DNA from: an uncultured Gammaproteobacteria bacterium | GTDB taxonomy: Bacteria; Myxococcota_A; UBA796; JAJRTE01 | NCBI GenBank assembly: GCA_964418585.1 | Contig: CAYQMG010000089.1 | Location: 95,185 to 159,184, forward strand | Reading direction: 5' to 3' | DNA length: 64,000 bases | In this document: one piece after another, positions 12,986 to 59,807 of the stretch | Layout of the letters: every line of letters starts with the position of its first letter | How positions within the stretch are numbered: position 1 is the stretch's first letter | Notes under the pieces: model-generated | The model's input: the letters and a program-made list of their open reading frames with translations, nothing else | Databases searched by the model: none | What the model was told of the DNA's origin: nothing | Position numbers and translations under genes: made by a program

Positions 12986-15820
12986 TCAGGCAAGGGTCCG
13001 CGCACACCGGAACCCGGCTACCCCCTTGGAAAGCACTGGATCAAGGAAGGAACGGCTGGCGCAGCGCATGTACCGGTCCGTGTCCACCCAGGCACCGCCC
13101 TTGAGCACACGGAGGCCCTGCGACTCGTTGTACCAGTCATCGCACCATTCGCGCACACCTCCCGCCATGTCCCGGACACCGTAGGGCGAGATGTCTTCTG
13201 GAAAACTCTTGATGGGCTCGGGCTCCGGTGCCCAAGGGCGGGAAAGCCGGGACTTGCAGAATGTGGGGTCGAACTGGTTGCCCCACGGAAACACACGCTC
13301 GTCCGCTCCCCGACCCGCCTTCTCCCATTCCACCTCGGTGGGCAGCCGGAACTCCATGCCCGATATCTCCGATTGCCAGGCGCAATAAGCTTCGGCAAAT
13401 TCGAATTCGACGCCAAAAATGGGCACGTCGTAGGCCATTCCGGGACGGCCCAGAGCACGTCCTTCCGGCCCAATCAGGTCCGGGATCGGCTCGTACCCGT
13501 TGGGCCCCAGCACCACCAGGGGAAGCCCCTCGTCCAGCCTCGGCTTGAGCCGCTCCGCTTCCGCTGGATCCACCTCGAGCCAGGCGTTCAGGAACTCGAT
13601 GTACTTGCGAAACGTGACTGGGAACTCCTGGATGGCAAAGCTCGCCACCAGTTTTTTCTCCTTCGGGTAGCCGTCAATGGCCTCCCGGTCGCCCCCGAGA
13701 AAGACCTCGCTCTCCGGAACATAGACGAATCCATCCCCGATTTCGGCATGGGTCCGCATCTTGATGGCAGCCCGGCACGTTTCCTGTCGTTCCAGCTTTA
13801 CCGGGTAGTAGACATCGCGGTATCCGGCTGCTCGAAGCACGATGAGGTAGCTTCCTTGGGGCAGGGCCACCTCCTCCACGGGGGTGTAGCCGAGCATGCG
13901 CGCGTCCACAGGTCGCAACACCCGGTCGCGTTCCTCATACCGGTAGAACCACACCTCTGCACCGGCTGGTTGGGAGGAGACCGAGAGGGTCCCCTCACCC
14001 TTGAGGAACGCTGCGTACCGTTTGACGGTGTACTGCCTCACCATGGATTCGCAGTAGATGGCTTCCGAGCGGTCGCCTTCTCGAATGGCCTTGCGATACT
14101 GGCTGACGAACAGGTCGGCCAGGCCTTCGCGTGCGTCCCGGTTGGAGGGGTCGTGGGCCAGGGCCTGACTGAAACGAGCGACGGCCTCCCCGAACGTGGT
14201 GAGAATCTTGGCCTCGATTTCGGCGACGCGATCCCACGTGGCCCAGACGCCGCGCTTGCGTTCGATGGGCTCCCATCCCTGGATTCCGTGTCCTGCGCGC
14301 CGGGCCACGTTCTTGGCCATCAGCAGGTCCTGTTGAAGCTGCTGGTGCTGCTTCACCAGTTCCTGCGCTTCCACGATCTTCTTTTGGGCCTCTTCCCGCC
14401 GCTTGGTTCCCTCCAGATAGGCCTCGAGTTCCTGCTGAAGGTCCTTGACACTCTGGAACCGTTCGTCCGGGTTCTTGGCCAGGCACCGCATGCAGATTTG
14501 CTCGAGTTCCTCTGGAACCTGATTCTGGGGGGCCATGATGGAGGGGCGGACCGGCATCTCAATGGGGACCCGCCGGAGCACTTCCTTGACATCACCCCGG
14601 AAAGGCGGGCGGTAGGTCAGGATCTCGTACAGGATCGCACCCAGCGCATACACGTCGGTACGCTCATCGATTTCGTCATTCCGGCCTCGAGCCTGCTCCG
14701 GCGCCATGTATGCTGGTGTGCCCTCGATCGCGCCGACCAGGGTGTCCTCGGGCGACCCGTGGCGGACGAGCTTGACCACGCTGAGCCCTTTTTCCCGGGC
14801 CTTCTTGGCAGCGTCCGGGCGCAGTCGGGCGACGCCCCAGTCGAGCACGGTCACCTCACCGTAGCTTCCCAGCATGATGTTGGATGGCTTCAGGTCCCGG
14901 TGGATGACCCCGCGGTCGTGGGCATAGGCAACGGCCTGGCATACCTGGAGTAGAATGGAGATGAGGCGCACCGGGCCGTACTGGAGCCGGAGAAGGGGAT
15001 TCTTTTTGCGAAGCCCCACGATGACGTTTTTGAGCGTTCGCCCCTCGATCTTTTTCATCGTGTAGTAGGGCAGTCCATTCTCCAGTCTTCCCAGTTCGTG
15101 CACCGGTATGATGATCGGGTGCTCGAGCTGCCCCGTGATCTGGGCTTCATCGTAGAACTTCCGCACCTGGCGGGCATCGCTCAGGCCCTTGCGCAACAGT
15201 ACCTTCAGCGCGATGGGCCGACCGATGAAGTCGTCCACCGCATGCAGGATGCGTCCCTGTCCTCCCCGATTGAGTTCGCCAAGAACCCGGTAGCGCCCCC
15301 AGCGGGTCGGCACCACGTCGTCAGGAGGAGCCAGTTCAGGGTCGAGCGCCGGGCCCGGGGCCACTCCGCCACCGATTCCGCTCGAGGAGGGATTTCCGCC
15401 CGAAGGCGTGCCGGTGGCCGAACGCACGCCCGAGCCGCCGCTGGCACTCCGCTCATGACCTCCGCCGCTCCCCATCGCCCCGGAGCCCTGGGCCGGCCCC
15501 CTTTCCCTCGAGGCGTCCGCCGTGCGAGAGTCCGCCTCCGATATGTCCTCGAGCTGGACCGATTCGATCACCGAGGAACTCAGGGCGTCCGAGACCATGG
15601 CTTCCAGGTCGATCTCTTCCTCGACGCTCCGGTCGACCTGCGTGACCTCCCCTTCGGAAGCGGTGTCCTCCGGGCCGGTCTGGGCCACCGCCCCGAACAC
15701 GTCGGACAGGAGGCCGGCCTGAAGGGCTTCAGGAGAAATCGGTTCGGAACCGTGACGCTGGAGAAACCGCTCCAGCGCCTCCTTCACCTGTTCGGGAGTC
15801 AACTGTTTCTGCCGCCCCAC
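12986..15820 (-). CDS. Ser/Thr protein kinase fused to PEGA-like and FGE-sulfatase (SUMF1-like) domains
   Basis: 944 aa; Hanks kinase motifs (HRDLKPSNIML, DWGVAR, GTPAYMAPE); C-terminal ...RVLKGGAWVDTDRYMRCASR...GFRCARTLA typical of FGE-sulfatase domain. Confidence 0.85.
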   Translation of the reverse strand: MGRQKQLTPEQVKEALERFLQRHGSEPISPEALQAGLLSDVFGAVAQTGPEDTASEGEVTQVDRSVEEEIDLEAMVSDALSSSVIESVQLEDISEADSRTADASRERGPAQGSGAMGSGGGHERSASGGSGVRSATGTPSGGNPSSSGIGGGVAPGPALDPELAPPDDVVPTRWGRYRVLGELNRGGQGRILHAVDDFIGRPIALKVLLRKGLSDARQVRKFYDEAQITGQLEHPIIIPVHELGRLENGLPYYTMKKIEGRTLKNVIVGLRKKNPLLRLQYGPVRLISILLQVCQAVAYAHDRGVIHRDLKPSNIMLGSYGEVTVLDWGVARLRPDAAKKAREKGLSVVKLVRHGSPEDTLVGAIEGTPAYMAPEQARGRNDEIDERTDVYALGAILYEILTYRPPFRGDVKEVLRRVPIEMPVRPSIMAPQNQVPEELEQICMRCLAKNPDERFQSVKDLQQELEAYLEGTKRREEAQKKIVEAQELVKQHQQLQQDLLMAKNVARRAGHGIQGWEPIERKRGVWATWDRVAEIEAKILTTFGEAVARFSQALAHDPSNRDAREGLADLFVSQYRKAIREGDRSEAIYCESMVRQYTVKRYAAFLKGEGTLSVSSQPAGAEVWFYRYEERDRVLRPVDARMLGYTPVEEVALPQGSYLIVLRAAGYRDVYYPVKLERQETCRAAIKMRTHAEIGDGFVYVPESEVFLGGDREAIDGYPKEKKLVASFAIQEFPVTFRKYIEFLNAWLEVDPAEAERLKPRLDEGLPLVVLGPNGYEPIPDLIGPEGRALGRPGMAYDVPIFGVEFEFAEAYCAWQSEISGMEFRLPTEVEWEKAGRGADERVFPWGNQFDPTFCKSRLSRPWAPEPEPIKSFPEDISPYGVRDMAGGVREWCDDWYNESQGLRVLKGGAWVDTDRYMRCASRSFLDPVLSKGVAGFRCARTLA

Positions 15821-26246: not shown

Positions 26247-29200
26247 TCAGGAGAGGTCGATGTAGCAGTAGACGGGGAAGGGAGAGGCCGGGCGGATTCG
26301 CCAGGAGGTGGTGTGCAGCGTGTGCGCCTGGTTCACCGGGTGCTGATTGAAGTCGAAGCGAGGGTCGTGAACGGAGAAGAAGGCCACGCCCTGGTCCAGT
26401 CGGAGGGTGAGGCGTCGGTTCGGGTTGGACCACAGGATTTCGAGGGTGCGGTGGTGAGCGAGTTTTCGAGGGTGGTCTACCAGTTGGACCTGTGTCTTGG
26501 GGCGGAGGGTTGCGAGGAGGGAGGAGAGGACCTTTTCCTGGGTGGTTGGATTGGTCCAGTCATGGTGGATGAGTCTTGGGGAACGCCAGCCATCCTGCTG
26601 GACGGCGGTGGTGATGATTGAGAGGATGGTATCGGACGAGAGGGTGCCGAGTTTTTCGAGTCCCTGAAGGAGGAGGAACAGGCCGAGCGTGGAGAGTGGG
26701 CTTTTGACGTACCGGTCGGAGTAGGTGACCCGGCGTGCCGGGCCGGCCTGGAGTGCTCTGGCGGTACCGGGGTGAGTTTGTTGGACGAGTTTCCAGAAGT
26801 GGTGAGCGAACCGGGTACGGTTGTGGAACATGGGGTTGTCGTGGTTGATGACGAGTTCGTGCACGGTGCCCGGATCGGGGGGTTGGAGCTGGTCGGGGGA
26901 GAGTGGAGAGAGGTCGTCCGGGAGTGTCGGTGAGTTCAGGGTTGCGTGCACATTGGTGGCGTCCTGGCGTGTGTCGAGCCATGCGGGGCCTGGGAGGAGG
27001 GCGGCGTGGTCGTCGGTGGCGAAGGCGGTGACGGTGTCGTCGTGGTGGAGTTCTGCATAGGTTATTGTGGGGCTGTCGTTTTTCTGGTTGTGTTGGAGGA
27101 AGAGGTGCAACCTGGCGAATTCTGCGAGGTTGGCGAGTTGCCGACGGGTTTGCCAGTCGGCCTGGTCGAGGGCGGATGGGGGGAGGAGGAGGTCCACCTG
27201 GGTACCGGATTCGGCCATGTGGAGGAGGACGTGTCGTGCGTTCCAGGCGCCGAGGTCCCAATCGGCAGGGTTTCCCTGGAGTACGAACCGTGCTCGAGTC
27301 AAGGGGTGGCGCAGTACGACGCGCTGGATGGCCTGAATGGGGGATTGCCATTCCACGGTGGTGGCGTCTCCAAAGCACTTCAAGTCCTGAGGGAGTTCCA
27401 GCGCATGGAGCAACCGTTCGGAGAGGAATGTACGCGCTCGGTGCCGGTTGAGTTGTTTTCTTTCGTGCTGGGTATCGTGTCCGAGGAGGCAGGCGTGGCA
27501 GGCGGCGTCGCAGTGGTTGGGGCAGTCGAGGCGAGCGCGTGCGGCCTTGAGCAGGTGTGTGAGCATGGCCGGTGCCTCGGCGCAGAATCCGGCGCCGCCG
27601 TCGGCGGTGTCGTAGAGGATGACGGCCAGACAGGTGTGTGCTCCCTCGCGCCCGTGTGCCACGGTGCAGCCGATTTCCTCCTCCTCGACGCCCAGGGTTT
27701 CGGCGAGCGCGAGTTTCAGGGCCACGGCGATGGTGATGGCCTCCGATTCCTCCTGGAGCGGCATGCCGGTATGTGGGTTGAGGAAATGGAGTTCGAGCAC
27801 GTCGGTGATGGTGGTGGAGCCCAGGGCCAGGTGTCGCTTGATGGCGAACGGTTCCCCGTTGCCCTCGCAGAGGATTTCGGGGCCTTTTCTTCCGGACGAG
27901 TCGCGTCCTCCTCGCAGGCGTTTGTGCTGGCGCATGGCCTCGGGCAGTTCGGCCGAAGCCGGATTTTCAGGGTCCCAGGGCTCGGAGACGGTTCGACCGC
28001 ACCGGAGGCAGACGGCATAGCCGTGGCCGTGGGCACCGTGGCTGAGGTGGATGAGTTTGCCGTTGGGCGCGTGACGGAGGCGCACGACAGGGGGAGAACC
28101 GAACGGGACGAACGGGTTTTCTCCTGATGAGATCCAGGATTCCAGGGGGGGCATCCAGGGTTTGGCGCCCAGTTCCGTGCTTGCCTTGGAACGGATGTCG
28201 ACGGCAAAGCCGGAGGGGATGAGGAACTGGCGGTGGTGCAGGTTGGAGGAACCGCAGCAGGGGCAGGATTCCACCCAGGTGCGGCCAGCGGTGACCCATC
28301 CACACTGGAGGCAACGGGAACCCACCTGCAGGTCCTGGAGTTCGTTGATCAGATTCTCTGTGGCCTCTGGCGGGATGTGCCAGTTGAGGGTGACTCCCGC
28401 CGACCGATAGGCTCGACCGTCCAGCACCACTTCGAGCCCCGGTGCATATTCGTTCAAGGCCATTCGGAGTTCACGAGTGGGATAGCCGCGCAGGAGCGCC
28501 AGGTTGTCCTCTCGTTTTTCTGACGTTCGTTCCGGCCTGCTCGGGCGCCGACCTCTCTTCCTTCGCACCGCGAGTTCCTCGGCGGTGGTGGTGACGAAGG
28601 GGACCACGTTGGTGGGGAAACCATATCCAGGAAGGAACTGCCGTGTGGCAAGGTAGCCCAGGAGATACTCTTCCCGGTGGCGTTTCAATTGGCGCTGGAT
28701 GGCCAAGGCCACCGGTGAGCCATCCCGGTCTTCGGGTTCCAGCGCGTTCCATTCGGTTTGGAGCCCTTCCAGCGTGTTCAGGTATCCCCTTCGGGCCGCG
28801 TGCATGGATTCGGCCACGTCTTCCAGAAGGTCCTCGATGCGCGTTCTCTCCTTTATCGACCGCCTTCGCAGCACCTCGAGCCGGTATTGCAACTCGTCAC
28901 GAGCCGGTGCGGTTGCCTGGAGATACTCGAAAAACCGGTCGCATACGGAAGGGGCTTCTGAGTCGGCCTCGAAGAACCAGCCGCAATGAAGCTTTGGGAT
29001 GGCCTTGTCTCCGGCCGCCTGGTACTGAAGAAGGAAGTCGGTGAGACAGACCGCGTTCACGTGTCGCTGCACGATGGGTCCACTGTCCAGGCATACGTCG
29101 GTGACGTGGAGCGGCGTGGTGAAGGGCCACAGGGGATTGCGGAATACGGCCTGGTCGTGGGGAAGGTTGCGGCACACGGTCACGCTCACCGCTGTTCGTT

Positions 29201-32200
29201 CGCCTCGACGACCGGCCCGACCCACCCGTTGGAGGAAGTTGGCCGGGTTCGGGGGGGCGTTGTTCATCGACACCGCGGACAACCCACCGATGTCCACTCC
29301 GAGTTCCATGGTGGTGGAACAACTCAGCACATTGATGGAGCCGGCCTTGAACTCACGTTCGTAGCCCTGCAACGTCCCTGCAGGAAGCTGGGCAGAATGC
29401 TCGGCGACCCGAAAATAAAACCACCCCTCCACGATTCGGTCGGTAACCTCGTGCCACACACCGGCGCTCCGGAGTTGCCGCACCTGTTCGTCTTGGGCCA
29501 GCCATGCCCGGATTTGTTCGAGGCTCCAGGGCGTTCCGTCAAAAGCCCGTTTGAAGGCGAACGGGGGGCGGGGCATGGTGACCTTGACACACCGGGTGTC
29601 GTACGCCCAGGGGTCATTGGGTTGGAGCGGTGTGTGCCCTCGCAACGTCGTATCCAGGAGTTGGCCGGTCAGTGGGCAGATCCACGCCTCCTGGATCGGC
29701 TCGAGACATGCCTGTCGTTCCAGGTCGAGCTGGTATCCATCCTGGGTCTGGTGCAGGAGTCGGCGGATGGCTTGCCAGGCTTCGTGGAGAATCTCGTTCA
29801 CCTCCTCGCGGGTTTCCCTGTCGGAACCGAGACCGAAAGCCTGAACCAGGAGGGCGGCGAGGCGCGGTGGCCGGGCGGCCGTCATCCACTGGGGCCACGG
29901 TGTCCGGTGCCGCTCTCGTTTCTCGCCCTGGGGCAGGAGGTAGCTGGGACGGATCCGAGTCCCCATCCAGCGGAACAGCGCCGGTTCCATGGTGAGCGCG
30001 GTGTTGGCCCGAACGAAGAAGTCGAGACAGAGTTTCAGGAAATCCCGCCATGTCTGGAGTGTCTCGCCTCGAGCTTTCCAGGCAGCCGGAACACGGGTGA
30101 TCCGGGTGAGGCCGGGGTAGGTGAGTTTCACGAGTCCCAGGGTCTCCAGTGCGCGTCGGCGGGAAGGTCTCCGGGCGAACTCCCGCACGACCAGGCCTCG
30201 CGCCAGTGCTTGATGGTCCAGGTCGAAGGGATCGTAGGTGCTGCGCGCTGCGTGCATCCAGGAGATCTCCCGTGTTTTCGAAAGTTCCTGGATGGCGGTT
30301 CGGAAGCAGAGAGGTTCGGTCTGGGACAGGCTGTCAATCTCCTGGCGGAGTCGCTCGATGGTTTGGTCGAGCACCGTTCCACGGTCGCCCAGTTCTCGCT
30401 GGAGGGCGAGGAGGCGTCCGAGTTCCGCCTCTTTTTCCTCTCTTTTTTCCTGTTGGTCCGCCTGAGAGGTCCCAGACGTCGCAATGACCTGGGCGTAAAG
30501 AAAACTCCGAACGTAGTTGCGTTCCGAATCCCGCTGGGCCGCCGCTGCAAATCGGGCTGTGCCCTGGCGGCTGTCCGAGAACGTGATGAGTCGCCGACCG
30601 TCGGCGGGGCACCCGTTCCCGGTACGGTCGGCCGGGACCCATTCGAGCAGCCCAGGAAGGACCACGCTCTGGGTGAACTGGATGGCGTTTCGGAACGTTT
30701 TCCAGAAAGGGCGGAGGGACGGGCCCTTGTGGAGGCATCGCGGGCACTGAAGAGGTTCGGAGGCGGATTCCAAAGATTCGAGCACCAGGAAACGGGGGCC
30801 CGGGGTTCCCAGCTCCCCTGTTTTTGGATCGAGTGTTTCCAGGTCCGGAGAGGAGGGGTCTGGGGGCGGTGCGAGCAGGGCCGTGGCGTGGTGTTGGAGC
30901 GGAAAGTGCAATTCGGTACCCATTGGAGTGTCGGCAGGGTGTTCCGGTGCGGGGGACTCGTCGTCTTCTGGAGCGAACGGATCTTCCTCGTCGTCGGTGG
31001 CCGTGTCGCCCCGGTCCGGTGGGGGGCTGTTTGGAGGAAGGAAGCGGTCGGTGGCGTCCTGCTGCACCACGGTTCCTGCCAGGAAGATCTGGCTGCAGGT
31101 GTTGCACAGGACCAGTTCATACACGAGCGAGCCACAGGCCTTGCAGGTGTGGCGTTCGTTGAAGTAGACCGTTCCAAAAGGCCATTCCGAGGACTGGAGC
31201 GGGCGGTGCGTTTTCCCCGGGCACGCCGGGTTGATACAGGCCCAGAGCCCGGGCTGGGTCCGGGCAAACAGGTGCAAGCGTAGAGGCAGGAACGGGGTGC
31301 CATCCGGGCCTGTCGCGCTGCTCAACAGGTCCAGGAACCGGACGGTCTGCTTTCGGGCCTCGGTTTGCTGTCGTGCCGAAGGGCCGAACAGGGTCTGCGT
31401 CAGGTCCGAGAGGCGGGCGGGTCCTCGGGAGACGAAAGCGCTTCGAACCGTCCGTGCTGGGAGGGAGGAACAGAGTTTCTCGTAGCGTTCGTCCTGGGTA
31501 AGCGCGGAGAGGGCGTCCAGGTCCGGGAACGTGGTCTCGAGCGGGTCTTTGTCGGGTAGCCTCGGAATGTCGTGCCGACCCAGCACCACGTGGACCTGAT
31601 GATCCGGTTGGCCCGATACCGAAGCCAGGAAGCGCCGCAGCGCCTCTTCCGGGGTTCTCCCGTGGCGATCCTTGCCCTGGGACGCGATGGTGGCCGAGGT
31701 GGCGATGAACCGGACGTTCTCGGCCCGGACTTCGAAGGCGGTGAGCACACGACGAAGCAGGAGCGCCAGTTCCGCGGCCTGTGACCCCAGGTAGGTGTGC
31801 GCCTCGTCGATGACCACGTATTTGAGTCGGCCCCGGGAAAGCTCGAGGATCGGATGGTCGGCTGGACGAACCAGCATGTATTCGAGCATGGTCGCATTGG
31901 TGAGGAGGATGGGAGGAGGCGCTTTTCTGAGCGACTTGCGGTCCAGCACCTCCTCGGGCCGGTGGCGCTTCTCCGATTCCGGCAAATGGTCCGGGGTGTT
32001 GCCGTTGTAAAGGCAGAACCGAACCGTGCCGTCGAAGCCTCGAGTCCAGGCTGCCAGCCTGTCCTGCTGGCTGTTGATGAGCGCGTTGAGTGGGTAGAGA
32101 AACAGAGCCTGGACTCCGACCAGCGGCCGTCGCCGGTGCCTCGCCTGGAGGGCGAGATCGTTGAGAATCGGGATGAGGAAGCACTCGGTCTTCCCGCTAC

Positions 32201-32621
32201 CCGTGCCTGCACTCACGACCACTGACCGGGGCGGGTCACTCATCAGGTGTCGCCAGGCCTCCCGTTGGTGCAGGTAGGGGTGGATCGATCGCGCCAGTCG
32301 CTGCTCCCGCAGCGTTTCCGGCGGGCTGTCCAGGTAGGAGACCAGGGTGGCATCGAGTTCTCCCGTGTCGGCGAGGTCCTGGAGTGTTTCCGGGCCGGTC
32401 CGGTGGCCGAACTTGGCCTCGAACACCGGGTCGGAGAAGAGCGCGTTCTCGGTCCCGGGCGCGTGTTCGTAGGTGTCGGCGAGGAACTCCCTTAGGGGGC
32501 GGTTTCTGGGCGATAGATAGCTCAGCAAGGCCCGTCCGTACCGAGTGGTCAGGTTGTCCAGCAGGATGTTGAACTCGTTGGAACGCGATCGTTCGGAAGA
32601 AGGGAGATCTGGATTCGTCAT
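26247..32621 (-). CDS. Giant DExH-box SF2 helicase with Zn-ribbon insertions and DUF1998-like (MrfA-type Zn-binding) module; DruE-like
   Basis: Track ORF 26247..32666 (TTG) trimmed to ATG 32621 (MTNPDLPSS) preceded by AAGGAGAG. Motifs: Walker A SAGTGSGKTE, Ia YPLNALINSQ, II VVIDEAHTY, III ATSAT, VI QRVGRAGRRGE about 850 aa downstream; Cys clusters CINPACPGK...HTCKACG...CNTCSQ, CLQCGW...CPCCG, CLRCG, CPNHCDAACHAC; LPGYGFP and ILYDTADGGAGF as recalled for DUF1998. Confidence 0.85.
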   Translation of the reverse strand: MTNPDLPSSERSRSNEFNILLDNLTTRYGRALLSYLSPRNRPLREFLADTYEHAPGTENALFSDPVFEAKFGHRTGPETLQDLADTGELDATLVSYLDSPPETLREQRLARSIHPYLHQREAWRHLMSDPPRSVVVSAGTGSGKTECFLIPILNDLALQARHRRRPLVGVQALFLYPLNALINSQQDRLAAWTRGFDGTVRFCLYNGNTPDHLPESEKRHRPEEVLDRKSLRKAPPPILLTNATMLEYMLVRPADHPILELSRGRLKYVVIDEAHTYLGSQAAELALLLRRVLTAFEVRAENVRFIATSATIASQGKDRHGRTPEEALRRFLASVSGQPDHQVHVVLGRHDIPRLPDKDPLETTFPDLDALSALTQDERYEKLCSSLPARTVRSAFVSRGPARLSDLTQTLFGPSARQQTEARKQTVRFLDLLSSATGPDGTPFLPLRLHLFARTQPGLWACINPACPGKTHRPLQSSEWPFGTVYFNERHTCKACGSLVYELVLCNTCSQIFLAGTVVQQDATDRFLPPNSPPPDRGDTATDDEEDPFAPEDDESPAPEHPADTPMGTELHFPLQHHATALLAPPPDPSSPDLETLDPKTGELGTPGPRFLVLESLESASEPLQCPRCLHKGPSLRPFWKTFRNAIQFTQSVVLPGLLEWVPADRTGNGCPADGRRLITFSDSRQGTARFAAAAQRDSERNYVRSFLYAQVIATSGTSQADQQEKREEKEAELGRLLALQRELGDRGTVLDQTIERLRQEIDSLSQTEPLCFRTAIQELSKTREISWMHAARSTYDPFDLDHQALARGLVVREFARRPSRRRALETLGLVKLTYPGLTRITRVPAAWKARGETLQTWRDFLKLCLDFFVRANTALTMEPALFRWMGTRIRPSYLLPQGEKRERHRTPWPQWMTAARPPRLAALLVQAFGLGSDRETREEVNEILHEAWQAIRRLLHQTQDGYQLDLERQACLEPIQEAWICPLTGQLLDTTLRGHTPLQPNDPWAYDTRCVKVTMPRPPFAFKRAFDGTPWSLEQIRAWLAQDEQVRQLRSAGVWHEVTDRIVEGWFYFRVAEHSAQLPAGTLQGYEREFKAGSINVLSCSTTMELGVDIGGLSAVSMNNAPPNPANFLQRVGRAGRRGERTAVSVTVCRNLPHDQAVFRNPLWPFTTPLHVTDVCLDSGPIVQRHVNAVCLTDFLLQYQAAGDKAIPKLHCGWFFEADSEAPSVCDRFFEYLQATAPARDELQYRLEVLRRRSIKERTRIEDLLEDVAESMHAARRGYLNTLEGLQTEWNALEPEDRDGSPVALAIQRQLKRHREEYLLGYLATRQFLPGYGFPTNVVPFVTTTAEELAVRRKRGRRPSRPERTSEKREDNLALLRGYPTRELRMALNEYAPGLEVVLDGRAYRSAGVTLNWHIPPEATENLINELQDLQVGSRCLQCGWVTAGRTWVESCPCCGSSNLHHRQFLIPSGFAVDIRSKASTELGAKPWMPPLESWISSGENPFVPFGSPPVVRLRHAPNGKLIHLSHGAHGHGYAVCLRCGRTVSEPWDPENPASAELPEAMRQHKRLRGGRDSSGRKGPEILCEGNGEPFAIKRHLALGSTTITDVLELHFLNPHTGMPLQEESEAITIAVALKLALAETLGVEEEEIGCTVAHGREGAHTCLAVILYDTADGGAGFCAEAPAMLTHLLKAARARLDCPNHCDAACHACLLGHDTQHERKQLNRHRARTFLSERLLHALELPQDLKCFGDATTVEWQSPIQAIQRVVLRHPLTRARFVLQGNPADWDLGAWNARHVLLHMAESGTQVDLLLPPSALDQADWQTRRQLANLAEFARLHLFLQHNQKNDSPTITYAELHHDDTVTAFATDDHAALLPGPAWLDTRQDATNVHATLNSPTLPDDLSPLSPDQLQPPDPGTVHELVINHDNPMFHNRTRFAHHFWKLVQQTHPGTARALQAGPARRVTYSDRYVKSPLSTLGLFLLLQGLEKLGTLSSDTILSIITTAVQQDGWRSPRLIHHDWTNPTTQEKVLSSLLATLRPKTQVQLVDHPRKLAHHRTLEILWSNPNRRLTLRLDQGVAFFSVHDPRFDFNQHPVNQAHTLHTTSWRIRPASPFPVYCYIDLS

Positions 32622-32669
32622 CGTTCTCTCCTTTTCTGCGAGGAGACGGCCGGGTGAAAGGCGCAAGGG

Positions 32670-35600
32670 TCAGTCCGCCGCTGAACCGGAAGGGTAAGAT
32701 TTCTTTCGGCGCGTTCGTTTGTGCACCGCCACCGGACCCGCCCCAGCGCGTGCAGCGCTTGCTGGTTTGAAAGGACTCGGCTCGTTTTCCCACGGGGTTT
32801 CGGAGGGGAACGGAGGCAATTTCTCCTGGAACGCGGGCCATGGGCTTTTCCACCGTTCCCTGGCCAGCAGGATCAAGGCGAGTTGATATGCGGTTTCGAA
32901 GTATTCCGGATCGAATTCCTTGAACTCGCGGAGAAAGAAGATGACCCGGCGCTCGAGCCGTGTTCCGGAGACGGCCGCGGAGGCTGCCGCGGCCGGAGCG
33001 AAGACCACGGGCCTGGTGTAGCCGGGGACCAGATTCTTGTCGGTGAAGGGGGACAAGGGACTTTTCCCCAGCGGACCGTGTATGGCCTCTGTTTTCAGCG
33101 TGGTGAAAACCGGGCCGGCCGGGCAGCAGGGCCACTGGTCGGAAGCGTGGCGTTCGCGGAGTTCACGGACGGTATCCCGCAGCGAATCGTAGATGGGTTC
33201 CACCGGTCCGACACCACGGGCCGACAACACCTCGTTTTTCCGGCAGGGTGAATGCTGGATTCCCTCCTGTTCCGCCCACCTGCAGAATGGGATGGTCACC
33301 GTGGGAAGGAGGTTCTCCACCCGCTTGACGCCGTGGGTCAGGGTGCGCTCCACCAGGGTGGCCATCCCCGCGTCCCGGGCGTGCATGGCGGGTAGACAGG
33401 ATCGGTGGTATTGCTCGAAAGCGTTCTCCCAGGCGCCCAGGGGGACGAGTTCCCACATGAACGGGAAGCGCTCGAACAGGTCCCAGATGGCCTCGAAGTC
33501 AGGTTCGTGCATGGATCGAACCGCGGCCATGGCCACCACGTCGGGCATGTAGCTCATGCAGCGCAACACGTCGAACGTGGCGGGTGGGATGTCGGCGGCC
33601 ACCTCGAGGAACCCTGTGACGACGCGCCAGTCCTCGTCTCTCGGGTTGGCTGCCAGGGACCGGAGGGCCAGGGCGATGTGGTCCCAACGGGTTCTGGCAG
33701 GGTGTTGCTCCATGGCCGCAACCAAGGCACTGTCGACCCGGTCCAGGGTCTGTGAGACCCGGCCTGGAGGTTCGTCGACCGTCCAGGCGAGGGTGCGGCC
33801 TCGGTGCCACGCGCCATCTCGAGCCGTGATCAGCCAGGTGCCGGGTTCTCGTGATTCCGGTGCGAATCGCCAACGCGGTGTTCCGGCAGCGTCGTGTCCG
33901 ATGAATGGGAGCGTTTCCGTCTTGCTCACATTTTTCAGTGGTCGTGCCTCCACGGTCACCTCGTCGAGCGGTTGCCCGGTTGCGCCTGTCAGCACCACCT
34001 CCCCGCGGCTCGTGTCTCGTTGAAGGACCCAGTCGTATCGCCGGACCCGGATGCTGGTTCCTTGACCTGGCGTGCTGCCAACCTCGAACACCTGGAGGCG
34101 CACATCGGTGTCGTAGGTATCGCTCATTGCAAGCAGTCGCTCCACTGCCGGGAGCACGTGCCGGAGGGGGAGTTCGTGGAATCCCTCTCGGACTCGAGGC
34201 ACCGGTTGGGTGGTTTCCAGCCTGGTGCTGAGATCGGAACTGGACGCGGACAGGTAGTACCGTCCTGTGGTCGAGGGGGTGATGATTCGGAGGCGATGGC
34301 GTCCCAGTCTGGAGATGTGGATGGGGTGATCATGAGGGAGGGGGTCCGACTTTGCCGATTCGAACGAAGCCCGCTCCACAGGCCAGGGCAGACAAAGGTC
34401 GACCTCGGTCCCGAAATCGAGGCGCAGGTGAAGGTGCGGAAGGTGGGGTGCGACACAGGGCACGTGGACGGTGTGGCCCTCGTTGGTACGGGAGATGTAC
34501 ACGCCCTCGGCCGCGCGAACCAGGCCGACCCTTCGGAGAAAGCGGCTGGAGAGTGTGATTGCGCCGTCCCTCTCCCGGTCACCCACGGTCATGGTCCACC
34601 TGAAATCGGGAGGAAGAACGGTCAACCTATTCTCCCACGCCACCTCCTCCCTCTCTCCGTAGAGACGAAACCGGAGCGTCCCGAACAGGGTTTCGTCCCA
34701 CGGGCGCCAGGATCCATCGGGGTGCCGGACCCGGATCCTCTGGGTGTTCACCGGCGCACGTCGGGCCGAACTCAGGGTTCGATACAGGTCGGGCAGCCCC
34801 AACCAGAGAGTGCTTGAGGTGTCCGGAAGGTCGAGTCGCGCCCCGGAGAAGCTGTACTCCCCTTCTTCGGCTTCGGCCGCAGTGCGAACCCTCACCTGGT
34901 CTCCATTCCGGTGAAAGGTCACGTCCCCCTGGACACGGTAAGCCGTCCTGTCCAGGGGGGCGCCCATGAAGGATGCACCGACCCCCTGGTACGTCTTCGG
35001 AGACCAGTCTGCGCCGGCCAGCACCAGGACCTCCTCCGAGCGCACCTTGCAACTCCCCGTGGCAAGAAGCTCCCACGCTCCCGGTGCTTGCGTATCCTGG
35101 CGGAAGGTCCAGGGAAGGTCAGGGAGTGCCGAGGCCCCCTCGAGCCCGGCGACCTTGGCCAGCACCTCGCTGCCACTGGAAATCTCGAGCAGAATCTCGC
35201 CTGTTTCCTCGAGAACCAGCCCACGTGCTCCGGTGGTGGTCAAGATCCAGTAGGGATTGCCCTGCTCGTGTCGACGGAGGAGCCGGCCGTATGCAGCGAC
35301 CTCGGAGTGTTCTGGAGAGTACATACGGAGTCCCAGGCGTCGCGAGCCAGGGTCCAGCTTTGTGCCGAGAAAGGACTCGAGCACGGCCGGCTCGATGCGT
35401 CGCGCGGCCGACAGGCGTCGTTCGAGGTGCCACTTACCGTTGCGCTCCACCAACCAGGTCGCCATGCGAATCCGGTCCTTCGCCCCGCGCGCCACGTCGC
35501 TCGCCGTGGATACGAGGCCGCGCAGAAACGCCAGGGCCGTGTCGTTTTCGAGCAGAATGGGCATGGTGTCCCGCCAGGCGGGATCATGGAGGTCCAACCA

Positions 35601-36242
35601 GGCGACCGGGTCCTGCTTGTCGTCCAGGGGGTAACGGGAGCGGAGGGACCAGACCTGGGCTACCAGGTCAGCCGCCAGCGCCTCGGTCTCCTCGCTTCGA
35701 AGGGATACCGGCAGCAGGTGCGCGCGGTCCGCCGCCACCTGGAACAGCTCCTCAGACGATTCGGTCCCGCCGTATCCGTACACGCGGAAATCTTCCATGA
35801 TCGCGCGGAAGTAGGCGTGTAGCTTCGACCCCTCCTGTTGGAGCAGCTTCAGGGGCATGCCGCCCTCGCATGCGATGGTCACCAGGTAGAGTTGCCTTCC
35901 GTTTCGGGACAGGACAGGCCTGTCCCACCGTTCGAGCCCGGTCCGGATCACGGCAACCAGTGTGCTCCAGTTCCATTGCTCCTTGCCAATGCTGCATTTG
36001 AGTCCATCCCAGGACCATGCACCGTGCTCATGACGTCGTCGCCACCACTCGGCACCCGCGAGACAGATCATGGCCGCCTCGTCAGGTGAGATCCGGGTGG
36101 AGGGCAGGGAAGACAGCCGCGCACGCAGTCCGGCCAGGATGGCGTGCCATTCTTCCCGGGTACACCGGTAGGCATAAAGCGGACGCCCGTCCGGTTCGGG
36201 TGGTCTGTCCACGTGTCGCTCCAGAAACTCTCTCAGCTTCAT
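32670..36242 (-). CDS. Giant (~1190 aa) protein of unknown function, operon partner upstream of the helicase; DruH-like by position and size
   Basis: Track ORF 32670..37925 trimmed: its upstream 560 codons are antisense to the aldehyde dehydrogenase gene. ATG 36242 (MKLREFLERH) preceded by AAGGAGGGAG; alternative ATG 36374 (MQVLSAG) also has GAGGAG. No recognisable catalytic motifs. 48-bp gap to helicase start. Confidence 0.65.
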   Translation of the reverse strand: MKLREFLERHVDRPPEPDGRPLYAYRCTREEWHAILAGLRARLSSLPSTRISPDEAAMICLAGAEWWRRRHEHGAWSWDGLKCSIGKEQWNWSTLVAVIRTGLERWDRPVLSRNGRQLYLVTIACEGGMPLKLLQQEGSKLHAYFRAIMEDFRVYGYGGTESSEELFQVAADRAHLLPVSLRSEETEALAADLVAQVWSLRSRYPLDDKQDPVAWLDLHDPAWRDTMPILLENDTALAFLRGLVSTASDVARGAKDRIRMATWLVERNGKWHLERRLSAARRIEPAVLESFLGTKLDPGSRRLGLRMYSPEHSEVAAYGRLLRRHEQGNPYWILTTTGARGLVLEETGEILLEISSGSEVLAKVAGLEGASALPDLPWTFRQDTQAPGAWELLATGSCKVRSEEVLVLAGADWSPKTYQGVGASFMGAPLDRTAYRVQGDVTFHRNGDQVRVRTAAEAEEGEYSFSGARLDLPDTSSTLWLGLPDLYRTLSSARRAPVNTQRIRVRHPDGSWRPWDETLFGTLRFRLYGEREEVAWENRLTVLPPDFRWTMTVGDRERDGAITLSSRFLRRVGLVRAAEGVYISRTNEGHTVHVPCVAPHLPHLHLRLDFGTEVDLCLPWPVERASFESAKSDPLPHDHPIHISRLGRHRLRIITPSTTGRYYLSASSSDLSTRLETTQPVPRVREGFHELPLRHVLPAVERLLAMSDTYDTDVRLQVFEVGSTPGQGTSIRVRRYDWVLQRDTSRGEVVLTGATGQPLDEVTVEARPLKNVSKTETLPFIGHDAAGTPRWRFAPESREPGTWLITARDGAWHRGRTLAWTVDEPPGRVSQTLDRVDSALVAAMEQHPARTRWDHIALALRSLAANPRDEDWRVVTGFLEVAADIPPATFDVLRCMSYMPDVVAMAAVRSMHEPDFEAIWDLFERFPFMWELVPLGAWENAFEQYHRSCLPAMHARDAGMATLVERTLTHGVKRVENLLPTVTIPFCRWAEQEGIQHSPCRKNEVLSARGVGPVEPIYDSLRDTVRELRERHASDQWPCCPAGPVFTTLKTEAIHGPLGKSPLSPFTDKNLVPGYTRPVVFAPAAAASAAVSGTRLERRVIFFLREFKEFDPEYFETAYQLALILLARERWKSPWPAFQEKLPPFPSETPWENEPSPFKPASAARAGAGPVAVHKRTRRKKSYPSGSAAD

Positions 36243-36506
36243 CCCACTCCCTCCTTGGACGGCACGCGCCTCGACCACCCCGGGACCGGTCCGGGCCGGG
36301 GGGGCTGAAGGCGGGAAAGCGTGGTATTCCCCACCACCTTGCGCCCTGACCGGTCCCGCGGACAAGACCTGCATGGTCTCCTCTTTCAGGTATTGGCGAT
36401 CAGCAACGAGGAACTGACATCGACCGGCGCACCAACTCGAGTTTGACATCCCGGAGCAGGCTGACGAGAATAGCGAAGCGTGCTCGTGTGAAAGGAGGCC
36501 TCCGTC

Positions 36507-37946
36507 ATGTTGAAGGAATCGTATCCGTGCTACGTGGCCAACCAGCCGGTGACTCCGAACCAGGACCTCGAGGTACGAGACAAGTACTCCGGCCAGACCG
36601 TGACTCGGGTCCCCCTGGCCGGACCGGATCTCATCGAAACCGCCATCGGGAAGGCAGCAGCAGCCGTCCCGGCGATGCGGGAACTGCCTGCCTATCGTCG
36701 GGCCAGTGTCCTGAACCACTGTCTCCAGAGGTTCGAGGAGCGCTTCGACGAACTCGCCATCGCACTCTGTGTGGAAGCCGGAAAGCCCATCCGGGACGCC
36801 CGCGGTGAAGTGACACGGCTCATCGACACCTTCCGGATTGCGGCCGAGGAAGCTGTGCGGCTCAACGCTGATTTCCTCCCTCTGGACATCTCGCCTCGAG
36901 CCGATGGCTACGAGGGCATCACCCGCCGTGTGCCGGTCGGGGCCTGCGCGTTCATCAGCCCATTCAACTTCCCTCTCAACCTCGTCGCCCACAAGGTCGC
37001 TCCCGCAATCGCCGTGGGATGCCCGTTCGTGCTCAAGCCCGCCTCGTTCACCCCGGTCGGGGCCTTGATCATCGGCGAAATCCTCGCAGAGACCGACCTC
37101 CCTGAAGGCGCATTCAGCATCCTCCCCGCGCGGCGACAGGACGCATGGCCGCTGGTCACCGACGACCGGTTGAAACTCCTCTCCTTCACCGGATCCCCGG
37201 AGGTCGGCTGGTCCCTCAAGGCCCAGGCGGGCAAGAAAAGAGTCGTCCTCGAACTCGGGGGGAACGCCGGGTGTATCGTTGACGAGGGCGCAGACCTGGA
37301 ACGGGTCGCGGATCGGATTACCTTCGGCGCTTTCTACCAGTCCGGACAGTCTTGCATCAGTGTCCAGCGCATCCTGATCCACGATTCCCTCTACGATGAC
37401 CTCGTCCCCATGCTCGTGGAACGGGCACGCGCATTGAAACCTGGAAACCCTCAGCACGAATCGGTCTCCCTCGGCCCCATCATCAGCGAGGCGGACGCAA
37501 TCCGTATCGCAACCTGGATCGACGAGGCTGTACAACACGGGGCACGGATCCTCTGTGGCGGTCACCGAAACGGCTCGTTCGTCGAGGCCACGCTCCTCGA
37601 AAACGTCGACCCCAAGGACAAGGTGAGCTGCGCCGAGGTCTTCGGTCCCGTCGCCACAGTCCAGCGGTTCTCCAACTTCCAACAGGCCGTCCAGATCGTC
37701 AATGACAGCAGGTACGGACTCCAGGCCGGCGTCTTCACTCGAGACCTGAACCGGGCCTTCTACGCATGGAACCATCTCGAGGTCGGAGGCGTCGTCATCA
37801 ACGACATCCCGTCCATGCGCGTGGACAGCATGCCTTACGGCGGCGTCAAGGACAGCGGGCTGGGCCGGGAAGGGGTCCCCTACGCCATGGAGCACATGAC
37901 CGAGACCCGCCTGATGGTGCTCCATCGAGCGGGCCGACTGTCGTAA
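36507..37946 (+). CDS. NAD(P)-dependent aldehyde dehydrogenase family protein
   Basis: 479 aa; AAGGAGG RBS; ALDH signatures (FTGSPEVG, ELGGNAG, catalytic Cys in QSGQSCISVQR). Confidence 0.9.
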   Translation: MLKESYPCYVANQPVTPNQDLEVRDKYSGQTVTRVPLAGPDLIETAIGKAAAAVPAMRELPAYRRASVLNHCLQRFEERFDELAIALCVEAGKPIRDARGEVTRLIDTFRIAAEEAVRLNADFLPLDISPRADGYEGITRRVPVGACAFISPFNFPLNLVAHKVAPAIAVGCPFVLKPASFTPVGALIIGEILAETDLPEGAFSILPARRQDAWPLVTDDRLKLLSFTGSPEVGWSLKAQAGKKRVVLELGGNAGCIVDEGADLERVADRITFGAFYQSGQSCISVQRILIHDSLYDDLVPMLVERARALKPGNPQHESVSLGPIISEADAIRIATWIDEAVQHGARILCGGHRNGSFVEATLLENVDPKDKVSCAEVFGPVATVQRFSNFQQAVQIVNDSRYGLQAGVFTRDLNRAFYAWNHLEVGGVVINDIPSMRVDSMPYGGVKDSGLGREGVPYAMEHMTETRLMVLHRAGRLS

Positions 37947-54540: not shown

Positions 54541-54599
54541 GGAAGGGTCCGGGCCGGCGGTTCCGGCCCCGGGGGCGAATTTCCCGGGAGGAGGTGACC

Positions 54600-56756: not shown

Positions 56757-56956
56757 CCTCCTGGAACGCACCTGCCGAGCAAGACCGCGTCGGGTCCCCG
56801 CCTGCTCGACGTTGAGCGAAGTCGTTGAAACCTTTTCGTTCTTGTCCCGTTGGTATCTCCGCGGGCATCCGTGCGAGGGTTGGCTTGCACCCCCTTGCGG
56901 GAGTGGTATAATGACCACTGTCGATGCGATGGCTTCTGCACTGGAGGCGGAGAGCG

Positions 56957-59727: not shown

Positions 59728-59807
59728 CCGTGTGGGAGTCGGGGGGGCGAACGGTCTCCCGGAGCCTGGAGTCCATCCGCTTGCGGGCGTCGTGCGGTGA
59801 GGGTGCC

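What the first reader, a model, noticed from the sequence alone, without database searches (positions are those of the whole stretch)
32670..36374. Upstream giant partner has no recognisable motifs and an ambiguous start; the track ORF is inflated by an antisense artefact
The 1751-aa track ORF runs antisense through the aldehyde dehydrogenase gene; realistic starts are ATG 36242 or ATG 36374, both with good RBS. The protein lacks P-loops, nuclease or methylase motifs that I can see. A ~1200-aa motif-less protein tightly coupled to a defence-type helicase is a good candidate sensor or effector.
Basis: partly seen in the sequence, partly recalled or inferred. Interest (0 to 1): 0.6.

Follow-up and report, generated by a model that had tools for sequence, protein, structure and literature searches.

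The report
Divergent DruH of a Druantia III system
The large "motif-less" protein is DruH, the known partner of the DruE helicase-nuclease in the type III Druantia anti-phage system; it starts at ATG 36242, and this copy is just a very divergent member of an already described family.

Summary
The 1751-aa ORF (32670..37925, minus strand) is inflated because its first ~560 codons run antisense through an aldehyde dehydrogenase gene (36507..37946, plus strand). The real gene is 32670..36242 (1190 aa), starting at ATG 36242. Family profiles, homologue N-termini, a Shine-Dalgarno site 7 nt upstream and existing public gene calls all agree on that start.

The protein is not an orphan. It is DruH (YjiT / STY4851/ECs_5259 family: NCBIfam NF038336 E=5e-163; PADLOC DruH E=3e-92; PDB 9tud "DruH" E=3e-34). 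The gene 48 nt downstream is a full-length DruE (PADLOC DruE3, 2055 bits). Together they form a two-gene type III-A Druantia defence system.

The predicted fold is an N-terminal helical domain, about 560 residues of beta/Ig-like repeats and a C-terminal helical domain, as in the 2026 cryo-EM structures. N-terminal residues whose mutation abolishes defence in E. coli and P. aeruginosa DruH are conserved. In 64 of 67 related genomic loci, druE lies directly downstream of druH.

What is unusual is modest:
- identity to any relative is at most 29%;
- there is a 58-aa disordered basic C-terminal tail;
- the E. coli ssDNA/ATP pocket is poorly conserved.

Interest is low.

The parts
32670..36242 (-). 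druH coding sequence, 1190 aa plus stop codon (32670-32672); true start ATG 36242
   Evidence: NCBIfam NF038336 YjiT_fam E=5e-163, residues 4-1123 to profile 3-1090/1090. PADLOC DruH PDLC00049 E=3e-92. PDB 9tud_A DruH E=3e-34. hhalign to E. coli DruH: probability 100%, E=1e-114. An identical 1190-aa product is in public gene calls.
36250..36256 (-). Shine-Dalgarno AAGGAGG, 7 nt upstream of ATG 36242
   Evidence: Read directly from the sequence.
35487..36242 (-). [quoted passage not shown] It carries the family's most conserved residues: D18, R20, P21, Y23, Y25, R26, E65, R68, R69, W78, W106, L120, G127, G128.
   Evidence: AF2 model secondary structure. Conservation and mapping to residues essential in E. 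coli and P. aeruginosa DruH. This domain has the highest identity to relatives: 33% against 22% for the rest.
33777..35468 (-). DruH central all-beta region (residues 259-822), about six Ig-like domains
   Evidence: AF2 model, strands only, pLDDT mostly 75-90. Foldseek PDB hits are to multi-Ig proteins such as DSCAM, leptin receptor and ICAM-5, and BFVD hits to Ig-repeat tail and BACON proteins. The published cryo-EM structures report six Ig-like domains.
32847..33728 (-). DruH C-terminal alpha-helical domain (residues 839-1132). In P. aeruginosa DruH this domain contacts the DruE stalk.
   Evidence: AF2 model. The DruE-contact role is taken from Loeff et al., not tested here.
32673..32846 (-). 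Lineage-specific 58-aa Pro/Ala-rich tail ending in a basic cluster (HKRTRRKK); predicted disordered
   Evidence: pLDDT 31-49. There are 75 residues after the last conserved motif, against a family median of 21 and a maximum of 72. No GC3 bias: 0.62/0.66/0.62.
32622..32669 (-). 48-nt druH-druE spacer holding the druE ribosome-binding site (AAGGAG)
   Evidence: Read from the sequence. Spacers in relatives are mostly 14-70 nt.
26247..32621 (-). druE, 2124 aa: SF2 helicase (GSGKT 141, DEAH 272), MZB/DUF1998 domain, and a C-terminal PLD-like region with invariant DRY 1969-1971 and HxR 2056-2058
   Evidence: PADLOC DruE3 PDLC00037, 2054.6 bits, profile 3-2043/2055. Pfam DEAD, Helicase_C, MZB. PDB 9tu7 E=0. 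Motifs.
36243..36506 (.). Divergent intergenic/leader region between druH and the aldehyde dehydrogenase gene. It contains the rejected ATG 36374 and an inverted repeat (36278-36296 / 36343-36361) built on the palindrome GGACCGGTCC.
36507..37946 (+). Aldehyde dehydrogenase gene. The antisense ORF through it inflates the 1751-aa track ORF. It is not part of the system.
   Evidence: Pfam PF00171 E=1e-142. Codon-position GC.

Best explanation
The gene at 32670..36242 (minus strand) encodes DruH, the subtype-specific partner protein of a two-gene type III-A Druantia anti-phage system. Its operon partner druE (26247..32621) encodes an MrfA/YprA-like SF2 helicase with a C-terminal PLD-like nuclease region.

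The most likely working, inferred from 2026 work on the E. coli and P. aeruginosa orthologues and not tested here, runs as follows. DruH is the upstream recognition and licensing component. It engages ssDNA-containing phage DNA intermediates such as 3' tails, forks and recombination-dependent replication intermediates, and possibly phage structural proteins through its Ig-like array. Through its C-terminal helical domain it recruits and activates DruE. DruE then translocates 3'-to-5', unwinds the invader DNA and degrades it, without killing the host.

Shown here: family membership, start codon, fold class, conserved N-terminal functional surface, operon linkage and co-inheritance with DruE. 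Inferred: every biochemical step. Whether DruH itself cuts DNA is disputed in the literature.
For: Family membership:
- PADLOC DruH E=3e-92 and DruE3 2054.6 bits.
- NCBIfam YjiT_fam 544.5 bits against a cutoff of 150, full length.
- PDB 9tud 'DruH' E=3e-34 and 9tu7 DruE E=0.
- hhalign to E. coli DruH: probability 100%, E=1e-114, over 1-1119 and 1-1128.

Fold: helical, ~560-residue beta, helical, mean pLDDT 76.6, with Ig-repeat structural neighbours. This matches the published architecture.

Conserved residues: positions whose mutation abolishes defence are conserved. P. aeruginosa R22/K28/E64 correspond to R20/R26/E65 by motif. E. coli E75, R78/R79, W88, W115, L129, G136/G137 correspond to E65, R68/R69, W78, W106, L120, G127/G128.

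Linkage: DruE lies directly downstream on the same strand in 64 of 67 independent related loci. DruH and DruE divergence are correlated, r=0.75.

DruE keeps Walker A, DEAH and the invariant C-terminal DRY and HxR motifs.

Mechanism comes from papers 10.64898/2026.05.13.724313, 10.64898/2026.05.12.722862, PMC13192584, 10.64898/2026.05.13.724758 and PMC13316683.
Against: - No experiment exists on this locus.
- Identity to the characterised proteins is only ~21%.
- The published mechanisms disagree. DruH is a 3'-5' exonuclease in Loeff et al. It has no nuclease activity and is an ATP-competed ssDNA binder in Hu et al. It is a dimerisation-dependent nuclease and protein sensor in PMC13192584.
- Of the eight E. 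coli ssDNA/ATP-pocket residues, only two are identical here, and R1031 falls in an E. coli-specific insertion.
- The locus sits among core chromosomal genes (an RND efflux operon on one side and the aldehyde dehydrogenase gene on the other, with DnaE further off), not in a recognisable defence island or mobile element.
Confidence: 0.88

Rival explanations
1. Same identity (DruH), but the protein is a non-catalytic ssDNA-binding module gated by ATP. At normal ATP levels a nucleobase pocket between Ig5 and the C-terminal domain is occupied by ATP. When ATP falls, or ssDNA made by DruE accumulates, DruH binds the ssDNA (model of Hu et al.).
For: Cryo-EM of E. coli DruH with ssDNA and with ATP, and no nuclease activity detected. 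Y663 and R1077 here match E. coli Y670 and R1064, and F719 is a conservative match to Y733.
Against: Five of the eight pocket residues are not conserved here (N672 to S, H689 to T, H1062 to T, K1067 to P, R1031 has no counterpart), and they vary across 162 relatives. The most conserved part of the family is instead the N-terminal domain. Two other groups report DruH nuclease activity.
Confidence: 0.25
2. Same identity, but DruH is mainly a protein sensor. Its Ig-like / baseplate-J-like array recognises a phage structural protein (baseplate or minor tail protein), and this triggers the system.
For: PMC13192584 reports J-like similarity, a weak pull-down of a gp7 homologue and positive selection in the Ig region. 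PMC13316683 reports activation by minor tail protein Gp25. Here the Ig region and the C-terminal domain are the fastest-evolving parts (22-23% identity against 33% for the N-terminal domain), and DruH diverges faster than DruE in 60 of 60 loci.
Against: In my viral fold search only generic Ig-repeat hits appear. A baseplate wedge protein shows up only at E=0.03 with TM below 0.12. The evidence in the papers is described by their authors as indirect.
Confidence: 0.3
3. The gene starts at ATG 36374 and encodes a 1234-aa protein with a 44-aa N-terminal extension.
For: In-frame ATG preceded by GAGGAG. A few family members have long N-termini.
Against: - Spacing between the Shine-Dalgarno-like sequence and the ATG is only 3 nt.
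- The extension is Gly/Pro/Ala-rich and has no homologue counterpart.
- The profile alignment starts at residue 4 of the short form.
- The DGR motif would lie at residue 62, beyond the family's 95th percentile.
- The stretch holds a 19-nt inverted repeat with a palindromic core, typical of a regulatory leader.
- Public gene calls use ATG 36242.
Confidence: 0.04
4. The pair is a decayed or domesticated remnant, like yjiT/yjiV in E. coli K-12, or a housekeeping MrfA-like DNA-repair module rather than an active defence system.
For: The chromosomal core context has no flanking integrase, tRNA or other defence genes. DruE is related to the repair helicase MrfA (PDB 6znp hit). The K-12 copy is truncated or a pseudogene.
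Against: Both ORFs are intact and full length against family profiles. Catalytic and essential residues are retained. The coding GC3 signature is normal. MrfA's partner MrfB is an unrelated exonuclease, and no such gene is here.
Confidence: 0.06

Closest known systems
DruH of type III(-A) Druantia (E. coli O157 ECs_5259 = PDB 9tud; P. aeruginosa PaDruH); YjiT / STY4851/ECs_5259 family (NCBIfam NF038336; Pfam PF27201 + PF27205)
   Same: - Full-length homology (hhalign E=1e-114).
- Same size class (1190 aa against 1119).
- Same helical / Ig-array / helical layout.
- Same conserved N-terminal residues.
- Same position directly upstream of druE.
   Different: - Only ~21% identical to the E. coli protein and at most 29% to anything in about 15 billion proteins.
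- The E. coli ssDNA/ATP pocket is largely not conserved.
- There is an extra 58-aa disordered basic C-terminal tail.
- The host is an uncultured high-GC bacterium, and the locus is outside any visible mobile element. In E. coli it sits in the SpLE6/OI-172 island next to Zorya II and ARMADA II.
DruE of type III-A Druantia (PDB 9tu7; PADLOC DruE3)
   Same: The partner gene here matches over its whole length. It has the helicase motifs, the MZB domain, and the C-terminal PLD-like region with invariant DRY and HxR motifs.
   Different: 38-41% identity at best to relatives. The druH-druE spacer is 48 nt, whereas in E. coli O157 the stop and start codons overlap.
MrfA-MrfB (B. subtilis mitomycin repair helicase plus 3'-5' exonuclease)
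   Same: DruE shares the MrfA helicase, MZB and OB core (PDB 6znp hit, E=8e-20). The logic of a helicase paired with an end-processing partner is similar if DruH is an exonuclease.
   Different: DruH has no sequence or fold relation to MrfB. DruE is three times longer and carries PLD-like domains. The function is defence, not repair.
DISARM (DrmA/DrmB/DrmC plus methyltransferase)
   Same: A related helicase core and a DUF1998/MZB module. Both are activated by ssDNA overhangs according to the literature.
   Different: Only weak DrmA hits (E about 1e-15, restricted to helicase motifs). There is no DrmC or methyltransferase, and the helicase and MZB are fused in one protein here.

Membership tests
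DruH (YjiT / STY4851/ECs_5259 family) | Full-length match to the family sequence profiles above curated thresholds | tested here: met
   NCBIfam NF038336 544.5 bits (cutoff 150), residues 4-1123 to profile 3-1090/1090. PADLOC DruH models, best E=3e-92. PDB 9tud_A E=3e-34. hhalign probability 100%. Precomputed Pfam PF27201/PF27205.
DruH (YjiT / STY4851/ECs_5259 family) | Architecture: N-terminal helical domain, tandem Ig-like domains (six in the solved structures), C-terminal helical domain | tested here: met
   AF2 model, pLDDT 76.6: helices 1-252, strands 259-822, helices 839-1132. Foldseek neighbours are multi-Ig proteins. The number of Ig domains was not counted from coordinates, and direct superposition on 9tud was not possible because that entry is not in the fold library.
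DruH (YjiT / STY4851/ECs_5259 family) | Conserved N-terminal surface required for defence (P. aeruginosa R22, K28, E64; E. coli E75, R78/R79, W88, W115, L129, G136/G137) | tested here: met
   R20, R26 (K/R column), E65, R68, R69, W78, W106, L120, G127 and G128 are all present. The P. aeruginosa numbering was mapped by motif spacing (DGR-PLYAY-K), not by aligning the P. aeruginosa sequence.
DruH (YjiT / STY4851/ECs_5259 family) | ssDNA/ATP nucleobase pocket of E. coli DruH (Y670, N672, H689, Y733, R1031, H1062, R1064, K1067). This is a feature of one characterised member, not shown to define the family. | tested here: inconclusive
   Two of eight are identical (Y663, R1077), one is conservative (F719), and the others differ or fall in an E. 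coli-specific insertion. The alignment of the C-terminal domain at ~22% identity is uncertain.
Type III Druantia system | druH immediately upstream of, and co-directional with, a druE gene (SF2 helicase plus MZB/DUF1998) | tested here: met
   druE at 26247..32621, 48 nt downstream on the same strand. The same arrangement is found in 64 of 67 related loci.
Type III Druantia system | No other Druantia genes (DruA-D of type I; DruM/F/G of type II) | tested here: met
   The neighbours are an aldehyde dehydrogenase gene and thioredoxin on one side, and a MarR-like regulator with an RND efflux operon on the other. No PADLOC hits in 10 other unannotated ORFs of the window.
Subtype III-A (versus III-B) | Long DruE retaining the C-terminal PLD-like domains (III-B lacks them, per 10.64898/2026.05.13.724758) | tested here: met
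   The 2124-aa DruE aligns to the end of the DruE3 profile (to position 2043 of 2055) and to 9tu7 residues 766-2097. Invariant DRY 1969-1971 and H2056-x-R2058. Equivalence to P. aeruginosa D1917/R1918/Y1919 and H1999/R2001 is inferred from spacing.
Type III Druantia system | Confers protection against phage infection; both genes required | not testable with these tools
   Shown for the E. coli, P. aeruginosa and M. smegmatis systems in the papers read. Not shown for this locus.
DISARM | Separate DrmA helicase, DrmB (DUF1998), DrmC (PLD) and a methyltransferase | tested here: not met
   Only weak DrmA hits confined to helicase motifs (E=1.8e-15). No methyltransferase or DrmC gene in the neighbourhood.

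The most novel reading that the evidence does not exclude
This lineage may show that the ATP-competed nucleobase pocket described for E. coli DruH is a clade-specific feature. The universally conserved N-terminal helical domain (DGRPLYAY[RK] ... AAE..RR ... W ... GG) would then be the true functional core of DruH. The lineage-specific basic disordered C-terminal tail (…HKRTRRKK…) could supply an alternative DNA contact. If so, comparing this divergent DruH with the E. coli protein would help settle the dispute over whether DruH is a nuclease, an ssDNA binder or a protein sensor.
Probability: 0.25. Interest if true: 0.4.

Novelty: new member of a known kind. Interest (0 to 1): 0.2.

Why it matters
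For annotation: the 1751-aa ORF should be replaced by a 1190-aa druH (32670..36242), and the two giant genes should be labelled as one type III-A Druantia defence system.

Biologically it adds one very divergent DruH-DruE pair, from an uncultured high-GC bacterium and in a core chromosomal setting. A sequence this divergent is useful for separating family-wide constraints (the N-terminal surface) from features specific to the E. coli model (the ssDNA/ATP pocket). That matters now, because several 2026 studies disagree on what DruH does. It does not reveal a new kind of system.

Tried and rejected
- Pfam-A scan of DruH: 0 hits. The local Pfam copy predates PF27201 and PF27205, which appear only in precomputed tables.
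- Single-protein scan of genome contigs: no relatives confirmed. The alignment-based scan worked.
- Second word-indexed homologue search with the alignment: no new proteins beyond the first 24. The exhaustive HMMER search gave the real family size, 2644 clusters at 50% identity.
- Foldseek against PDB: 9tud is not in that library (release cut-off April 2026), so only generic Ig-repeat hits with TM below 0.2. AFDB50 was unavailable. BFVD gave no convincing baseplate-J match.
- E. coli K-12-lineage YjiT (ECONIH1, 1096 aa) turned out to be a different DruH variant from PDB 9tud. The O157 Sakai ECs_5259 sequence was fetched instead, and it reproduces all residue numbers in Hu et al..
- Leader RNA fold of 36243-36400: z = -1.55, not significant.
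- Promoter scan: no sigma-70-like site on the minus strand, and one plus-strand site that fits the aldehyde dehydrogenase gene.
- Rfam and tRNA scans of the window: nothing.
- Flanking direct repeats that might mark an inserted element: only short chance-level matches.
- The organism was not identified. Gene content (Ser/Thr kinases fused to FGE-sulfatase, RCC1/MopE-repeat proteins) hints at Myxococcota, but this was not tested.


Full report
**1. The observation**

The window is about 63% GC. It contains a 1751-aa ORF at 32670..37925 on the minus strand, directly upstream of a 2139-aa ORF at 26247..32666 (translations). On the plus strand, 36507..37946 encodes a 479-aa aldehyde dehydrogenase (Pfam PF00171, E=1e-142).

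The first ~470 codons of the giant ORF therefore run antisense through that gene. Codon-position GC shows this. The antisense part has GC1/GC2/GC3 = 0.78/0.45/0.67, which mirrors the aldehyde dehydrogenase gene (0.67/0.44/0.79). From 36242 downstream the pattern is 0.67/0.51/0.76, the same as the helicase gene. The "inflated ORF" claim is correct.

**2. The start codon**

Two in-frame ATGs were proposed, at 36374 and 36242. All evidence points to 36242:
- NCBIfam NF038336 aligns profile positions 3-1090 of 1090 to residues 4-1123 of the 1190-aa form.
- The PADLOC DruH model begins at residue 47 of the 1234-aa form.
- In an alignment with 18 homologues, the extra 44 residues (MQVLSAGPVRAQGGGEYHAFPPSAPPARTGPGVVEARAVQGGSG) have no counterpart, while MKLREFLERH aligns with the family N-terminal helix.
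- Among 104 relatives, the DGRPLYAY-type motif starts at a median of residue 22 (5-95% range 17-49). It is at residue 18 from ATG 36242 and would be at 62 from ATG 36374.
- AAGGAGG lies 7 nt upstream of ATG 36242, whereas GAGGAG lies only 3 nt upstream of ATG 36374.
- The exact 1190-aa product is already called on three public contigs.
- The stretch between the two ATGs holds a 19-nt inverted repeat (36278-36296 / 36343-36361). It is built on the palindrome GGACCGGTCC, which occurs exactly only once in the 64-kb window. It looks like a leader or operator rather than coding sequence.

**3. What the protein is**

The protein is DruH:
- PADLOC: 13 DruH models, best E=3e-92 over residues 47-1172.
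- NCBIfam: YjiT_fam, "STY4851/ECs_5259 family protein", 544.5 bits against a cutoff of 150.
- PDB sequences: 9tud_A, deposited as "DruH", E=3e-34.
- Precomputed Pfam: PF27201 YjiT_N and PF27205 YjiT_2nd. The local Pfam copy lacks these models, which explains the empty result.

I fetched the E. coli O157 Sakai gene ECs_5259 (1119 aa). Over the stretch aligned (residues 26-950) it matches the 9tud sequence. It also carries every residue named by Hu et al. at the stated number. A profile of this window's clade aligns to it end to end with hhalign: probability 100%, E=1e-114, residues 1-1119 to 1-1128, 21% identity.

**4. The partner gene**

The downstream gene is DruE (ATG 32621, 2124 aa):
- PADLOC DruE3, 2054.6 bits, covering profile 3-2043 of 2055.
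- Pfam DEAD, Helicase_C and MZB/DUF1998.
- PDB 9tu7, E=0.
- Walker A GSGKT at 141 and DEAH at 272. In the C-terminal region, DRY (1969-1971) and H-x-R (2056-2058) are invariant in 38 aligned orthologues. By spacing these correspond to the putative PLD-like nuclease pocket of P. aeruginosa DruE (D1917/R1918/Y1919, H1999/R2001).

A long DruE with PLD-like domains defines subtype III-A. The two genes are separated by 48 nt, which contain an AAGGAG ribosome-binding site.

**5. Structure**

An AlphaFold2 model built from a 23-sequence alignment has mean pLDDT 76.6 and pTM 0.60. It has four parts:
- helices only in residues 1-252;
- strands only in 259-822;
- helices only in 839-1132;
- a disordered tail in 1134-1190.

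Foldseek against PDB returns multi-Ig-domain proteins (DSCAM, leptin receptor, CSF-1R, ICAM-5) with low TM-scores. BFVD returns Ig-repeat tail and BACON proteins. [quoted passage not shown] Both report no informative fold hits beyond ICAM/NCAM-type Ig domains. A direct structural superposition was not possible, because 9tud is absent from the fold library and AFDB50 was unavailable.

**6. Functional residues**

The N-terminal domain is the best conserved part: 33% mean identity to relatives, against 22-23% for the Ig region and the C-terminal domain.

Residues whose mutation abolishes defence are conserved here:
- P. aeruginosa DruH R22, K28 and E64 map by motif to R20, R26 and E65.
- E. coli DruH E75, R78/R79, W88, W115, L129, T131 and G136/G137 map to E65, R68/R69, W78, W106, L120, T122 and G127/G128.

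By contrast, the ssDNA/ATP nucleobase pocket of E. coli DruH is poorly conserved (for the pocket; for the mapping):

| E. coli DruH | This protein |
|---|---|
| Y670 | Y663 |
| N672 | S665 |
| H689 | T678 |
| Y733 | F719 |
| R1031 | none (E. coli-specific insertion) |
| H1062 | T1076 |
| R1064 | R1077 |
| K1067 | P1078 |

These positions also vary across 162 relatives. Given ~22% identity in that region, I rate this as inconclusive rather than as absence of a pocket.

**7. Family size, divergence and linkage**

An exhaustive HMMER search of 1.84 billion representatives finds 2644 clusters at 50% identity with E<=1e-3, and 1504 with E<=1e-30. Typical length is about 1130 aa, and this protein is its own cluster. 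Its nearest relative is 29% identical.

A scan of one genome per species returned 80 loci. They come from Gammaproteobacteria, Betaproteobacteria, Desulfobacterota, Acidobacteriota, Planctomycetota, Myxococcota and others.
- Of 67 independent loci with at least 1.5 kb downstream, 64 have druE directly downstream on the same strand. One more (L076) does too once a partial DruH match is allowed for. The exceptions, L067 and L069, carry interrupted or truncated druH.
- Identity to this window's proteins averages 25% for DruH and 38% for DruE. DruE is the more conserved of the two in 60 of 60 loci, and the two values correlate (r=0.75).
- This fits the published findings that DruH pairs strictly with DruE, that their trees are congruent, and that DruH diverges faster.

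**8. Context**

Ten kilobases on either side carry no other defence genes. On one side are the aldehyde dehydrogenase gene, thioredoxin, a glycosyltransferase, an RCC1/MopE-repeat protein and a Ser/Thr kinase. On the other are a MarR-like regulator and an RND efflux operon.

Further out are DnaE, ClpB, a sigma-70 factor, a Mur ligase and an LD-carboxypeptidase. There is no tRNA, no Rfam family, no integrase-like hit among the ORFs scanned and no flanking repeat. Ten unannotated ORFs have no PADLOC hit. GC content does not differ from the surroundings. So the system sits in core chromosome. The E. coli O157 copy, in contrast, lies in the phage-like element SpLE6.

**9. How it most likely works (inferred from the literature, not tested here)**

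All the 2026 studies read agree on three points. Both genes are needed. DruE is a 3'-to-5' SF2 helicase that loads on ssDNA-containing DNA. In E. coli and P. aeruginosa, defence clears phage without killing the host; the M. smegmatis study instead reports abortive infection.

They disagree on DruH:
- Loeff et al.: a Mg-dependent 3'-5' ssDNA exonuclease that trims 3' ends of forks. Through its C-terminal domain it recruits and un-dimerises DruE, which then degrades both strands with its PLD-like nuclease.
- Hu et al.: no nuclease activity; an ssDNA binder competed by ATP.
- PMC13192584: a likely phage-protein sensor with dimer-dependent nuclease activity and an N-terminal regulatory surface.
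- Himpich et al.: a monomer of unknown function that leaves DruE on infection.
- Li and He: DruH-DruE interaction is essential, activation is by a minor tail protein, and phage DNA circularisation and replication are blocked.

For this locus, the conserved N-terminal surface and the C-terminal helical domain fit a licensing or recruiting role upstream of DruE. That is the explanation I commit to. Whether DruH is catalytic remains open.

**10. What is particular to this copy**

- Extreme divergence.
- A 58-aa Pro/Ala-rich tail ending in HKRTRRKKSYPSGSAAD. It is the longest C-terminal extension among 128 sequences compared. It is predicted disordered and has no GC3 bias (0.62/0.66/0.62), so it may be a recent read-through into former spacer sequence.
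- Weak conservation of the E. coli pocket.
- A core-chromosome location.

None of these changes the classification.

**11. Verdict**

The object is a known system, type III-A Druantia, of which this is a new and very divergent member. Interest is low (0.2).

Noticed in passing
window 36278-36361 (druH leader, between the two candidate ATGs): A 19-nt inverted repeat (89% complementary, 46 nt between the arms) centred on the perfect palindrome GGACCGGTCC (36283-36292), with a 1-mismatch copy 64 bp away (36347-36356). The exact 10-mer occurs nowhere else in the 64-kb window. It may be an operator pair or a leader hairpin. The RNA fold z-score is only -1.55.
   Followed up: partly
window 32673-32846 (-): The 58-aa C-terminal tail of DruH (Pro/Ala-rich, ending HKRTRRKK) is predicted disordered. 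It is longer than in any of 127 relatives and lacks the GC3 bias of the rest of the gene. It may be a recent extension by stop-codon loss.
   Followed up: partly
window 54594-61847 (+): Four consecutive ORFs (720, 327, 607 and 707 aa) with strong coding GC3. The last three have overlapping stop/start junctions. None has any Pfam or PADLOC hit, so this is an operon of unknown function.
   Followed up: partly
window 8599-10683 (-): A single 694-aa ORF combines a beta-lactamase/PBP-like domain (residues 12-363) with an acetyl-CoA carboxylase zinc ribbon and a carboxyl-transferase (AccD-like) domain (439-652). This is either an unusual fusion or two genes merged by the mechanical ORF call.
   Followed up: no
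window 12986-15820 (-): A 944-aa Ser/Thr protein kinase fused to a PEGA domain and an FGE-sulfatase domain. Together with the RCC1/MopE-repeat protein and a second kinase near 41-46 kb, this hints at a Myxococcota-like host. The organism was not identified.
   Followed up: no
L067 10001-14179 and L069 5639-7042: These are the only two related genomic loci with ample downstream sequence but no druE. In L067 the druH match is stretched over 4.2 kb, which suggests an insertion. In L069 only the first ~490 residues are present. They look like decayed copies.
   Followed up: no
protein P0002 (alignment A1, columns 1-200): This DruH homologue carries a second, partial copy of the N-terminal motif region (…RPLYAYNISDTTYADL… followed later by DGRPLYAYKMSDTTYADL…). 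It is either a tandem duplication of the N-terminal domain start or an assembly artefact.
   Followed up: no
L003 6415-10856 (E. coli K-12 MG1655) versus L004 9001-18637 (E. coli ECONIH1): K-12 yjiT (505 aa) and pseudogene yjiV are the truncated remains of a DruH-DruE pair next to mcrBC. In ECONIH1, yjiT is full length (1096 aa) but druE is frameshifted. This K-12-lineage DruH is a different variant from the O157 ECs_5259 / PDB 9tud protein.
   Followed up: partly
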